Below, piece by piece: positions 37,471 through 40,245 of a stretch of 64,000 nucleotides of DNA. The stretch's first letter is position 1, and every line of letters begins with the position of its first letter. The stretch covers positions 30,662-94,661 of the forward strand of contig DUKZ01000002.1 of assembly GCA_013329045.1 (NCBI GenBank), written 5' to 3'. The notes under the pieces are model-generated. The model searched no databases and was not told the origin of the DNA. It saw nothing but the letters and a program-made list of their open reading frames with translations. Both the position numbers and the translations under genes were made by a program. The stretch comes from Candidatus Woesearchaeota archaeon. Its GTDB lineage: Archaea > Nanobdellota > Nanobdellia > Woesearchaeales > UBA9989.

Positions 37471-38364
37471 ATGGTTCACGCAAGAATTCAAAGCCCAAGC
37501 AGCATCCTGACATATAAGCAATGTCCGAGAAAATATTTTTTCCAGTATATCATGAAGATGCCAACAGGCAAAAATATCCATCTGGTGAGAGGGGGGATTG
37601 TCCATAAGGTCCTCGAGCTGTTCTTTCAGATGCAAGGAGAGGATCTCGCGGAGAGCTTTGATGTGACAATCGAATGCCTCAGGAAGAGAATCAATGCATT
37701 ATTTGTTGAAGAATGGAACGCCAGAAGAGAAGACGTATCATCCTTAGGGATGCCAGAGGAGCAGATCCAGTTTTATTTCGAAGAGACTTCAATGATGATC
37801 AGCCAGTATATAGAGCATTTCATTCAGCGTCTGCAAAAAGCGATGATAAAAAAGGGCATTTCCCATAACGCCGCATTCGACCTTTTAAAGCCAAAGACAG
37901 AGCAGCATCTTCTCAGCGAGGAGCATGGTGTCCAGGGATTTATTGACGCAATCGAGCATATTGATGGCAAGGTTGCATTGATGGATTACAAGACATCAAA
38001 GAAATCGTATATCACAGAAGAGTACAGGCTGCAGCTTGGTATCTATGCCCTTCTTTATAAGGAAAAAACAGGGGAGAATGCGCATAAGGTGGGCATCCAC
38101 TACCTCACGAATGGGAGGATCCTGCTGGATGTGGATCAAAACCTGGTCGACCATGCAAAAGAAGAGGTAAAAGCGGTCCATAATGCGACAAAATCAAAAG
38201 AGATCAAAGACTACCCGCAGAATATCACTCCGCTGTGCAAATGGAAGACCGGGCAGTGCGATTTCTATGAGTATTGTTTTAAGCAAAAGCAGATTGCAGG
38301 CTACTCTTCCCCAGCATCTTCTTCTCCCCCAGCATCTTCTTCTCCAGATTCCTCCTTGTCCTGA
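37471..38364 (+). CDS. Cas4-like PD-(D/E)xK nuclease with 4-Cys cluster (standalone)
   Basis: N-terminal ILTYKQCPRKYFFQY, DYKTSK (PD-D/ExK lysine), C-terminal CKWKTGQCDFYEYC completing C...CxxCx5C; low-complexity S/P tail. Confidence 0.65.
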   Translation: MVHARIQSPSSILTYKQCPRKYFFQYIMKMPTGKNIHLVRGGIVHKVLELFFQMQGEDLAESFDVTIECLRKRINALFVEEWNARREDVSSLGMPEEQIQFYFEETSMMISQYIEHFIQRLQKAMIKKGISHNAAFDLLKPKTEQHLLSEEHGVQGFIDAIEHIDGKVALMDYKTSKKSYITEEYRLQLGIYALLYKEKTGENAHKVGIHYLTNGRILLDVDQNLVDHAKEEVKAVHNATKSKEIKDYPQNITPLCKWKTGQCDFYEYCFKQKQIAGYSSPASSSPPASSSPDSSLS

Positions 38365-39161
38365 TTTCTGCCCTCCGGTTCAACGAGTGCCTCAAGCTGT
38401 TTCATCTTTTGTTGGGTGATCTTCCCGCTTTTTCGGTCAATGATGTAGAGAGTATGATTATCGAGAGATTCTCCTTCACCTTCTGAAGTGATATTCGTCG
38501 TTTCCCCTTTCATCAGATGAAGGGTGTAATAATCCTTCATTTTTTTTGAGCGAGCAGCTGATGCATGATAACAAGAGACAACAATGATCTTATCCTGTCT
38601 TTTTGCATAGATGATAAGGTTCATCCCGGAAACATGTGATGCTCGCCCTGCAATCTCGCAGCATACTTTTTCAAGAGAGCGAGCATCAATGGCATCCGCG
38701 CTAAGCGCCCGATTAAAGTACGCCATGATAGTGTGTGAATCACTTTTTCCATTCTGTTCGAGTCCCTTGACCGTTCCATTATGCATCCCAACAATATTGT
38801 CAAGATCAATGGGTTGGATATTCTCCTCATTGCTATCACCTGTCGTTGAGAGTCTTGCATGCATCATGACAACATATGCACCGCCAGCTGCTTGTTCTAT
38901 TGCACCATCACCAACGCTATAGACCCCTCGTGTAAACTTTTTCCTGCGCTCTCCCTCATTATTCCTTGCGTATATTCCAAATCCATCGCTATGGATGAGC
39001 CGCGATGATTGGTCGTATTCGCTCGAGGCAGAAAAATCTCCATAAGTATAAGGTGTATACTTGCCAAGAGACATGTTTTTTAGGTGAGTTGCCTGTTTTC
39101 GTATGTCCTCTTTACCAAGAGTCATAGTATTGTGGCAAAACTGGAGTATCATTCTGCACAT
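38301..39161 (-). CDS. Class-II glutamine amidotransferase-like Ntn hydrolase (YafJ/EgtC type)
   Basis: Met-Cys start (MCRM...) as required for N-terminal nucleophile; GFGIY and class-II GATase-like core; acidic low-complexity tail; start overlaps upstream ligase gene by 50 nt. Confidence 0.55.
   Translation of the reverse strand: MCRMILQFCHNTMTLGKEDIRKQATHLKNMSLGKYTPYTYGDFSASSEYDQSSRLIHSDGFGIYARNNEGERRKKFTRGVYSVGDGAIEQAAGGAYVVMMHARLSTTGDSNEENIQPIDLDNIVGMHNGTVKGLEQNGKSDSHTIMAYFNRALSADAIDARSLEKVCCEIAGRASHVSGMNLIIYAKRQDKIIVVSCYHASAARSKKMKDYYTLHLMKGETTNITSEGEGESLDNHTLYIIDRKSGKITQQKMKQLEALVEPEGRNQDKEESGEEDAGGEEDAGEE
38306..38345. repeat. Tandem direct repeat (18-19 nt x2) CCCCAGCATCTTCTTCTCC
   Basis: Seen directly; encodes the low-complexity C-terminal tails of both convergent overlapping genes (Cas4-like and amidotransferase). 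Confidence 0.5.
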
Positions 39162-40245
39162 ATCGCCTCACCTCAGCATGGAATACATCCCTGATTGAAT
39201 GGTAAATGTCTGGTATTGATGTTCCTCGCTTGAATTGTTCTACCATGGCAGTAGCTGGTGGTCGTGGATCATCGAACAATGGATCGAGAAATTCCTGTTC
39301 CCCTGGTGGTAAGTGAGTATAGGCAAGGCAAAGAAGATTTCTTGTTCCTTGTTGATCAAATACTCCTTCGCTTCGGCAGATGGAGAACGTTTCATGCAGT
39401 AAAGGATAGGATGAGAGGAGGGGTGCACCATCCAAAGCAGCCATCACGAGCCCTTTGGTGAGTGCAGCAAGAGCAAGAGTGCGAGAGAGTGTTGGTTGTT
39501 TGTCCAAACTTCTAATCTCCGCTGCAACACCCCTCTGCGGCATTGGTCTCATGTACTTATAATAACTATTTGGGTGTTGAAATACAGGAAGTGATTCAAT
39601 CTCCCTGGCATATTCTTCAAGAGAAGAAAGAGCTTTAGGATACCCAGTAAGTCCAGGAAATTCGCTCACGGCCATATCGTAACTGTCAAGACGGGTCATG
39701 AACCGATAAACCTGTTGACCACGAAAGGGGGATGCAGCAGACAATCCCGTAAGGTAAGGCAGCACATTCCGAAATTGTTCATATAAGAAGAAAGCTTGCT
39801 CTTCATTCTCCGCCCCAATATTGATTTGGTCTGAGGCTACCCTTGGAGCATGAAATGAGAATGATGCACCAAGAACACGTTCAAGGAGTTGGTAACGGGG
39901 ATTTTCTCTTATGGTAAACTGTGCATCTAACAGGGGTATTGGTAAGAGCGATGCACCCTGAGACTCTGCAAGATCAATTGCTTGCCTTGTAAGTTCGACG
40001 AGCTCATCCCGAAGGGTGGTAAGTGATTTATGAGGGCTTGTCGCAATTTCGATTTGCTCCCTGGCAAGTTCTCCTTTGATGGGAGAAGATGCGGGCAATG
40101 GAAGATGGACTGGAGTAAGCGTTCTTTTATCTACAGTAAAAAGTTCCATCTCAAGACCAAACTTTACTCCTTCATAGGCCCCAACAAGGGTATAGGTGTC
40201 ATGGAAAAGTCCATCGCCTTTGATGTGGTAACATTTTTCTACCAT
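39112..40245 (-). CDS. Carboxylate-amine ligase, glutamate-cysteine ligase family 2 (YbdK/EgtA-like)
   Basis: GLEMELFTVD, HxH-type region, AASPF (GCS2 SANSPFW-like) motifs. Confidence 0.6.
   Translation of the reverse strand: MVEKCYHIKGDGLFHDTYTLVGAYEGVKFGLEMELFTVDKRTLTPVHLPLPASSPIKGELAREQIEIATSPHKSLTTLRDELVELTRQAIDLAESQGASLLPIPLLDAQFTIRENPRYQLLERVLGASFSFHAPRVASDQINIGAENEEQAFFLYEQFRNVLPYLTGLSAASPFRGQQVYRFMTRLDSYDMAVSEFPGLTGYPKALSSLEEYAREIESLPVFQHPNSYYKYMRPMPQRGVAAEIRSLDKQPTLSRTLALAALTKGLVMAALDGAPLLSSYPLLHETFSICRSEGVFDQQGTRNLLCLAYTHLPPGEQEFLDPLFDDPRPPATAMVEQFKRGTSIPDIYHSIRDVFHAEVRRYVQNDTPVLPQYYDSW

What the first reader, a model, noticed from the sequence alone, without database searches (positions are those of the whole stretch)
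38301..40245. Coupled GCS2-family carboxylate-amine ligase and class-II (EgtC/YafJ-like) amidotransferase, resembling EgtA/EgtC without EgtB/EgtD
A gamma-glutamyl-type ligase is immediately followed, with a 50-nt overlap, by an Ntn-hydrolase whose Cys2 nucleophile is intact. In ergothioneine biosynthesis this pair adds and removes a gamma-glutamyl group, but the sulfoxide synthase and methyltransferase are absent here. This suggests a different gamma-glutamyl-cycling or small-molecule modification pathway.
Basis: partly seen in the sequence, partly recalled or inferred. Interest (0 to 1): 0.6.

Follow-up and report, generated by a model that had tools for sequence, protein, structure and literature searches.

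The report
Archaeal gamma-glutamyl ligase–hydrolase gene module
A tiny symbiotic-type archaeon carries a conserved three-gene set (an ATP-dependent glutamate-type ligase, a cysteine-nucleophile amide-splitting enzyme and a putative amino-acid-sensing regulator) that looks like the make-and-break halves of the ergothioneine pathway but is not that pathway; its substrate is unknown.

Summary

The host is a Woesearchaeota (DPANN) archaeon, GW2011_AR4. The hydrolase family is very small: 12 clusters among 1.84 billion representatives. In all 12 distinct contexts where a neighbour could be read, it lies next to a GCS2-type ligase, including three ligase types barely alignable with the window's, and in both gene orders. 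A divergently transcribed HTH/ACT-like protein (40339-41025, +) and a conserved intergenic motif accompany the pair in nine contexts.

The nearest ligase relatives carry an AstE/AspA zinc amidohydrolase instead, so the partner's role is probably hydrolysis, not ammonia supply. No EgtB or EgtD occurs in the window, and none was seen in the related loci. Best model: a regulated module that makes and cleaves a gamma-glutamyl amino acid. The amine substrate (Cys by precedent, Trp by TrpRS synteny) is unresolved. This is a new variant of a known theme, of moderate interest.

The parts
39112..40245 (-). GCS2/YbdK-type ATP-dependent carboxylate-amine ligase (377 aa)
38301..39161 (-). Divergent class-II (Ntn, Cys-nucleophile) gamma-glutamyl-type amidohydrolase (286 aa). 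Catalytic core is roughly residues 1-260. An acidic, disordered C-terminal tail is encoded at about 38301-38375.
39112..39161 (-). 50-nt overlap of the ligase 3' end with the hydrolase 5' end, with a Shine-Dalgarno-like GAGGTGAGG at 39166-39174
   Evidence: Sequence read directly. In L001 and L005 the corrected MCRM start lies within a few nt of the ligase stop.
40339..41025 (+). Divergently transcribed conserved 228-aa protein with an N-terminal HTH-like region and a C-terminal ACT-like domain. Putative amino-acid-responsive regulator of the pair.
   Evidence: Homologues at 44-55% identity sit in the same divergent position in nine contexts. Domain evidence is weak: ACT/aspartate-kinase C-terminus E 4e-4, Pfam ACT E 0.11 and DUF7523 E 0.016. 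The regulator role is inferred.
40289..40302 (-). Conserved intergenic motif CTATTTATGACACA, next to an AT-rich TATA-like stretch at 40303-40318. Candidate promoter or operator element of the divergent unit.
   Evidence: The same block, CTATTT(A/T)TGACACA, lies at the same distance from the regulator start in L001, L002, L005, L027 and L023, although the proteins are only 44-55% identical. There is a single exact copy in the window. Function is untested.

Best explanation
This is a compact three-gene module found mainly in Woesearchaeota-like (DPANN) contigs.

Step 1 (fold shown, chemistry inferred from family): the GCS2 enzyme uses ATP to activate a carboxylate, most likely the gamma-carboxyl of glutamate. 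It couples this to the amino group of an amino acid, giving a gamma-glutamyl dipeptide. Gamma-Glu-Cys is the default by family precedent.

Step 2 (fold and catalytic residues shown, substrate inferred): after loss of Met1, the partner uses Cys2 as N-terminal nucleophile. It holds a glutamyl moiety with Arg103 and Asp141, stabilises the oxyanion with Asn128-Gly129, and hydrolyses the gamma-glutamyl amide bond.

Step 3 (inferred): the divergent HTH/ACT-like protein senses an amino acid and sets expression through the conserved intergenic element.

No third enzyme is conserved with the pair. The simplest reading is therefore regulated synthesis and breakdown of one gamma-glutamyl amino acid. This would act as a buffer or reserve of a scavenged, scarce or toxic amino acid and/or a low-molecular-weight thiol. 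It is not the ergothioneine pathway.
For: Ligase family and fold. All biochemically characterised GCS2 members are Glu-Cys ligases (YbdK, plant GCL, haloarchaeal GshA, EgtA); this rests on established knowledge and PMC7278568.

Partner: EgtC is the best structural match. The catalytic set C2/R103/N128-G129/D141 is conserved across the family.

Coupling:
- The genes overlap by 50 nt and have an SD element.
- 12 of 12 contexts have a GCS2-type ligase adjacent.
- Three very divergent ligase types occur, in either gene order: L022 (506 aa), L025 (427 aa) and L026 (461 aa). L026 matches plant-type Glu-Cys ligase TIGR01436 at E 3e-15.

Hydrolysis rather than ammonia supply: the sister ligases (about 35% identity, L007 and L008) are paired with a non-homologous AstE/AspA zinc amidohydrolase.

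Precedent: a GCS2-sized ligase family occurs next to a GATase-like thiol peptidase or a gamma-glutamyl cyclotransferase in bacteria (PMC2588565).

Regulator and motif.

Possible thiol link: VKOR in the window; DsbA-like protein and CysRS in L022, and DsbD in L025; rhodanese in L005.
Against: No substrate was determined.
- The ligase scores far below every NCBIfam GshA/YbdK cut-off.
- It has Asp-Gln-Ile-Asn where YbdK has Gln-His-Val-His in a conserved active-site strand.
- TrpRS lies immediately downstream of the hydrolase in L023, L029 and L008, and close by in L007. Aromatic-pathway genes (chorismate mutase, DAHP synthase) lie near the sister ligases. This points to tryptophan or aromatic amino acids rather than cysteine.
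- Making and cleaving the same bond is futile unless the two steps are separated in time or by regulation.
- The thiol-related neighbours were grouped post hoc.
- The ACT/HTH assignment of the third gene rests on sub-threshold matches.
Confidence: 0.5

Rival explanations
1. Protect, modify, deprotect pathway, as in ergothioneine or butirosin. The ligase gamma-glutamylates a metabolite, an unlinked enzyme modifies the conjugate, and the Ntn enzyme then removes glutamate.
For: The EgtA/EgtC logic is the closest characterised analogue, and EgtC is the best structural match. This avoids a futile cycle. Variable neighbours could supply a middle step: Asp/Glu racemase in L025, a methyltransferase in L007 and a PLP decarboxylase in the window.
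Against: No third enzyme is conserved across the 12 contexts. Only the ligase, hydrolase and ACT-like gene recur. DPANN genomes are poor in biosynthetic pathways (established knowledge).
Confidence: 0.17
2. Two-subunit glutamine-dependent amide synthetase. The Ntn protein acts as a glutaminase and feeds ammonia to the GS-fold ligase, which amidates an ATP-activated carboxylate. This would be a new type of class-II amidotransferase.
Against: The sister ligases pair with an AstE/AspA zinc hydrolase, which cannot supply ammonia from glutamine. No fusion of the two proteins was seen in any context. No known class-II amidotransferase uses a GS/GCL-fold synthetase (established knowledge).
Confidence: 0.12
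3. Canonical ergothioneine biosynthesis (EgtA and EgtC), with egtB/egtD/egtE elsewhere in the genome.
For: There is structural resemblance to EgtC. EgtA is a GCS2 protein (established knowledge).
Against: The EgtC equivalog model TIGR03442 scores 17.2 bits against a cut-off of 218.65. There are no EgtB or EgtD domains in 64 kb, and none among the genes annotated or scanned in the related loci. The five-gene cluster is specific to Actinobacteria (PMC7278568).
Confidence: 0.03
4. Protein or peptide tagging in the manner of Pup. The ligase attaches a carboxylate of a protein or peptide to an amine, and the Ntn enzyme removes or processes the tag.
Against: The tail sequence and its last residues are not conserved...GEE...GQG...KKAA...AEAA. 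No small conserved tag ORF lies in the neighbourhoods. The ligase is much closer to YbdK and GCL than to PafA.
Confidence: 0.04

Closest known systems
EgtA/EgtC of mycobacterial ergothioneine biosynthesis
   Different: There is no EgtB, EgtD or EgtE. The EgtC model scores 17 bits against a cut-off of 219. Sequence identity to EgtC is about 14%. The host is an archaeon. The module has its own ACT-like regulator gene. The partner has a conserved 30-residue insert and a charged tail.
E. coli/Salmonella YbdK (orphan carboxylate-amine ligase with weak Glu-Cys ligase activity)
   Different: The window protein scores 51 bits against the 425-bit cut-off of the YbdK model. It has DQIN instead of QHVH in a conserved strand. 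It has a dedicated hydrolase partner.
Glutathione / gamma-Glu-Cys synthesis and breakdown (GshA with Dug3, GGT or ChaC)
   Same: The logic is the same: a Glu-Cys-type ligase plus an enzyme that cleaves the gamma-glutamyl bond. Yeast Dug3 is also a class-II GATase-type protein (PMC12653102, listed).
   Different: No Dug2 partner and no GshB appeared among the neighbouring genes (these were not specifically searched for). The two genes here form one overlapping operon. Thiol chemistry is unproven.
Bacterial 'new carboxylate-amine ligase' neighbourhoods described by Iyer et al. 2008
   Same: A GCS2-sized ligase is conserved next to a GATase-like thiol peptidase or, alternatively, a gamma-glutamyl cyclotransferase. 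That gives the same ligase-plus-cleaver theme, with non-homologous displacement of the cleaver (PMC2588565).
   Different: Those are bacterial families. Here the host is archaeal, the cleavers are a class-II Ntn family absent from Pfam or an AstE/AspA hydrolase, and there is an ACT-like regulator.
Gamma-glutamylation catabolic pairs (PuuA/PuuD and the aniline or naphthylamine GS-like systems)
   Different: Those ligases are true GS-type dodecamers, and their hydrolases are class-I GATase-like. They sit in catabolic operons with oxygenases or dehydrogenases, which are absent here.

Membership tests
GCS2 / YbdK-type carboxylate-amine ligases (PF04107) | Pfam GCS2 match above the gathering score | tested here: met
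   54.9 bits against a cut-off of 21, covering 2-277 of 291 profile positions.
GCS2 / YbdK-type carboxylate-amine ligases (PF04107) | Glutamine-synthetase/Glu-Cys-ligase fold | tested here: met
GCS2 / YbdK-type carboxylate-amine ligases (PF04107) | Membership of a named equivalog (YbdK, GshA, plant GCL) | tested here: not met
   The best NCBIfam score is 71.7 bits against a cut-off of 332. The YbdK model gives 51.3 against 425.
GCS2 / YbdK-type carboxylate-amine ligases (PF04107) | Glutamate plus cysteine as substrates | not testable with these tools
   Needs an enzyme assay. The conserved core motifs are present, but one strand differs from YbdK (DQIN against QHVH).
Class-II (Ntn) glutamine amidotransferase / EgtC-YafJ-type amidohydrolases | Cys directly after the initiator Met as nucleophile | tested here: met
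   The protein starts MCRM in the window. The same start occurs in the four relatives aligned after start correction and in every family member of A2 with a complete N-terminus.
Class-II (Ntn) glutamine amidotransferase / EgtC-YafJ-type amidohydrolases | Arg and Asp that bind the glutamyl alpha-carboxylate and alpha-amino groups, and the Asn-Gly oxyanion hole | tested here: met
   R103, N128-G129 and D141 are invariant in 13 sequences. R103 and N128-G129 align with GlmS HTR and HNG. The match of D141 to GlmS Asp123 rests on motif position and was not shown in the printed alignment.
Class-II (Ntn) glutamine amidotransferase / EgtC-YafJ-type amidohydrolases | Four-layer alpha-beta-beta-alpha Ntn fold | tested here: met
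Class-II (Ntn) glutamine amidotransferase / EgtC-YafJ-type amidohydrolases | Pfam GATase_4/6/7 match above the gathering score | tested here: not met
   GATase_6 gives 25.3 bits against 27. Across the family only weak hits are seen: 10 of 13 to GATase_6 and 7 of 13 to GATase_4, best E 8e-6.
Ergothioneine pathway (EgtA-E) | EgtB sulfoxide synthase and EgtD methyltransferase present with the pair | tested here: not met
   None occurs among ORFs of 150 aa or more in the window. None appeared among the genes annotated or scanned in the related loci. The rest of the genome was not searched.
Ergothioneine pathway (EgtA-E) | EgtC equivalog model TIGR03442 | tested here: not met
   17.2 bits against a cut-off of 218.65.
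Glutamine-dependent amidotransferase (glutaminase plus synthase complex) | Physical coupling and an ammonia channel between the glutaminase and the synthase | not testable with these tools
   No complex prediction was available. Indirect evidence is against it: an AstE/AspA hydrolase replaces the Ntn protein beside the sister ligases.

The most novel reading that the evidence does not exclude
The pair could be a previously unknown kind of class-II amidotransferase, in which an Ntn glutaminase feeds ammonia to a GS/GCL-fold, acyl-phosphate-forming synthetase. Alternatively, and somewhat more likely, it could be a dedicated, amino-acid-sensed gamma-glutamyl-dipeptide reserve system for a scavenged amino acid (Cys or Trp) in host-dependent DPANN archaea, genetically tied to TrpRS.
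Probability: 0.2. Interest if true: 0.7.

Novelty: new variant of a known kind. Interest (0 to 1): 0.45.

Why it matters
DPANN archaea have minimal genomes, so a three-gene module kept across deep divergence is likely to matter for how they handle scavenged amino acids or thiols.

The Ntn partner family is not captured by Pfam or NCBIfam. It has only about a dozen 50%-identity clusters in 1.84 billion representative proteins. Even so, it stays tied to GCS2-type ligases that have diverged almost beyond recognition.

Defining the product would have several consequences. It would assign a function to a YbdK-like ligase clade; the physiological role of YbdK itself has been unclear since its structure was published in 2004. 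It would test whether gamma-Glu-Cys-type thiols exist in DPANN. It would also give a small, tractable ligase, hydrolase and sensor set.

If it turns out to be only gamma-Glu-Cys turnover, it is an unremarkable extension of known glutathione-type metabolism.

Tried and rejected
- A word-indexed homologue search with the full partner sequence found nothing. The cause was probably the acidic low-complexity tail. A repeat with a trimmed four-sequence alignment worked.
- The contig look-up of P0001 failed. The exact window protein worked and identified the source genome.
- The GTDB species-representative scan gave only two loci because it depends on exact peptide seeds. That count is therefore a lower bound.
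- The viral-contig scan found only remote class-II GATase relatives and no family members. A virus-borne origin was dropped.
- The afdb50 fold library was not available.
- The 2009 amidoligase survey by Iyer et al. is not held in the library. The 2008 Biology Direct paper was used instead.
- Literature searches for YbdK, YafJ/EgtC, Woesearchaeota with Glu-Cys ligase, and DPANN with gamma-glutamylcysteine found nothing that describes this module.
- A Pup-like tagging role for the partner's tail was rejected because the tail ends are not conserved.
- The window's other neighbours are not conserved in other contexts and were not counted as parts. They are a 368-aa ORF and a 220-aa ORF with no family match, tRNA-Arg and a LysA-like decarboxylase.
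- One Pfam call failed on wrong coordinates.
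Full report
**Setting.** The window is an archaeal chromosome segment.
- It encodes GatD and GatE, a CDC48 ATPase, TruD, a thermosome subunit and PAC2.
- It also carries two over-long, probably intron-containing tRNA genes.
- Exact protein look-ups place it in 'archaeon GW2011_AR4', also labelled Candidatus Woesearchaeota, a DPANN lineage from groundwater.

**Observation.**
- ORFs 39112-40245(-) (377 aa) and 38301-39161(-) (286 aa) exist as reported and overlap by 50 nt.
- The downstream ORF begins MCRM. It is preceded by GAGGTGAGG, 4 nt upstream of its ATG and inside the ligase gene.
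- The coordinates, the overlap and the Cys2 claim are therefore all correct.

**The ligase.**
- It matches Pfam GCS2 well above threshold. It falls far below the cut-offs of every NCBIfam YbdK, GshA or plant-GCL model.
- A 34-sequence profile finds YbdK structures at E about 1e-33.
- The AlphaFold model is very confident (pLDDT 94.7).
- It is therefore a GS/GCL-fold carboxylate-amine ligase, not an ATP-grasp enzyme, and belongs to an unnamed YbdK-like clade.
- The core motifs shared with YbdK are present. One conserved strand reads DQIN where YbdK has QHVH. The significance of this difference is unknown.

**The partner.**
- Sequence methods barely recognise it. GATase_6 scores 25.3 bits against 27, the EgtC model scores 17 bits against 219, and PDB profile hits have E of 0.02 or worse.
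- A 13-sequence alignment gave a usable model (pLDDT 80, pTM 0.81).
- Cys2 is present in every member with a complete N-terminus. Arg103, Asn128-Gly129 and Asp141 are invariant across the family. These residues occupy the positions of the class-II glutamyl-binding Arg and Asp and the oxyanion Asn-Gly.
- Two gene calls in public data had missed the MCRM start. It is present upstream in frame.
- The family has two peculiar features. One is a conserved but low-confidence insert at residues 33-60. The other is a variable, charged, disordered C-terminal tail.

**Rarity and coupling.**
- An exhaustive HMMER scan of 1.84 billion representative proteins found only 12 clusters at E below 1e-10.
- Contexts were gathered by contig look-ups and by genome and metagenome scans. 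They were analysed by tblastn and clustering.
- In all 12 distinct contexts where the neighbouring gene could be read, a GCS2-type ligase is the neighbour.
- In L022, L025 and L026 the ligase is so divergent that tblastn missed it. Pfam or NCBIfam still calls it GCS2. L026 resembles plant-type Glu-Cys ligase, and in L025 and L026 the gene order is reversed.
- The hydrolase is therefore the conserved anchor, and it always travels with a Glu-Cys-ligase-family enzyme.

**A third gene and a cis-element.**
- A protein of 206-229 aa is transcribed divergently from the ligase in nine contexts, at 44-55% identity. In the window it is 40339-41025(+).
- Its C-terminus weakly resembles ACT domains, and its N-terminus resembles an HTH and DUF7523.
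- In the short divergent intergenic region, a TATA-like stretch and the block CTATTT(A/T)TGACACA are conserved. The window copy is at 40289-40302. The block lies at a fixed distance from this gene's start in six loci.
- I read this protein as an amino-acid-responsive regulator with its promoter or operator. This is inference.

**What the pair does.**
- The two nearest outgroup ligases (about 35% identity, L007 and L008) lack the Ntn gene. They have an AstE/AspA-type zinc amidohydrolase in its place.
- A non-homologous hydrolase in the same slot argues that the partner's job is to cleave an amide, not to deliver ammonia from glutamine.
- A similar alternation was described for a bacterial GCS2-sized ligase family, where the neighbour is either a GATase-like thiol peptidase or a gamma-glutamyl cyclotransferase (PMC2588565).
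- Only the ligase, hydrolase and regulator recur. The most economical model is therefore regulated synthesis and hydrolysis of one gamma-glutamyl amino acid.
- Ergothioneine biosynthesis is excluded as far as the data reach. No EgtB or EgtD domains occur in the window, and none appeared among the genes annotated or scanned in the related loci. The EgtC model is not met.

**Which amine?**
- Family precedent and the plant-GCL-like ligase in L026 favour cysteine.
- So does a scatter of thiol- and disulfide-related neighbours: VKOR in the window, DsbA-like protein and CysRS in L022, DsbD in L025, and rhodanese in L005. That grouping was made after the fact.
- Against cysteine, tryptophanyl-tRNA synthetase follows the hydrolase directly in L023, L029 and L008 and lies close by in L007. 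This holds across both hydrolase types.
- Chorismate mutase and DAHP synthase also accompany the sister ligases.
- I leave the amine unresolved.

**Verdict.** The system is a new archaeal variant of the known ligase-plus-gamma-glutamyl-hydrolase theme. It has a previously unclassified Ntn family, a dedicated putative sensor and an unknown product.

Noticed in passing
L023:2973-3394, L029:624-1682, L008:6754-7872, L007:4993-7177: Tryptophanyl-tRNA synthetase lies immediately downstream of the hydrolase gene. This holds in both Ntn-type (L023, L029) and AstE-type (L008, L007) versions of the module. L007 carries two TrpRS paralogues (bacterial-like and archaeal-like) plus a methyltransferase and a chorismate mutase.
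   Followed up: partly
window 3395-13266 (+): Nine consecutive co-directional ORFs (154-797 aa), several overlapping by a few bases, have no Pfam match at E 1e-5. This is a large block of unknown function.
   Followed up: no
window 22679-25402 (-): A 907-aa ORF has no Pfam family at E 0.01.
   Followed up: no
window 42775-42864 (-) and 51485-51587 (-): Two over-long tRNA genes (90 and 103 nt) probably carry introns. The second is found by Rfam but not by ARAGORN.
   Followed up: no
window 38301-38375 and homologues (alignment A2): Every member of the Ntn family ends in a disordered, highly charged low-complexity tail of 25-90 residues. Several tails end in Ala-Ala, while the window's ends in Glu-Glu. 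The tail also derailed the word-based homology search.
   Followed up: partly
L013:7185-13347: In one metagenomic context the pair is directly followed by a phage-type integrase and a run of small unannotated ORFs. This suggests an integrated element inserted next to the module.
   Followed up: no
L025:6270-6914: An Asp/Glu racemase gene lies immediately upstream of the hydrolase and ligase on the same strand. This raises the possibility of a D-amino-acid substrate in that lineage.
   Followed up: no
window 46389-47297 (-): The adenylate kinase domain occupies only residues 101-300 of a 302-aa ORF. Either the true start is downstream or there is a 100-residue N-terminal extension.
   Followed up: no
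window 55822-60197 (-) and L002:12096-13122: A Liv-type branched-chain/amino-acid ABC transporter occurs in the window. It comprises a binding protein, two permeases and two ATPases. A related binding-protein gene lies 5 kb from the pair in L002. This fits amino-acid scavenging.
   Followed up: no
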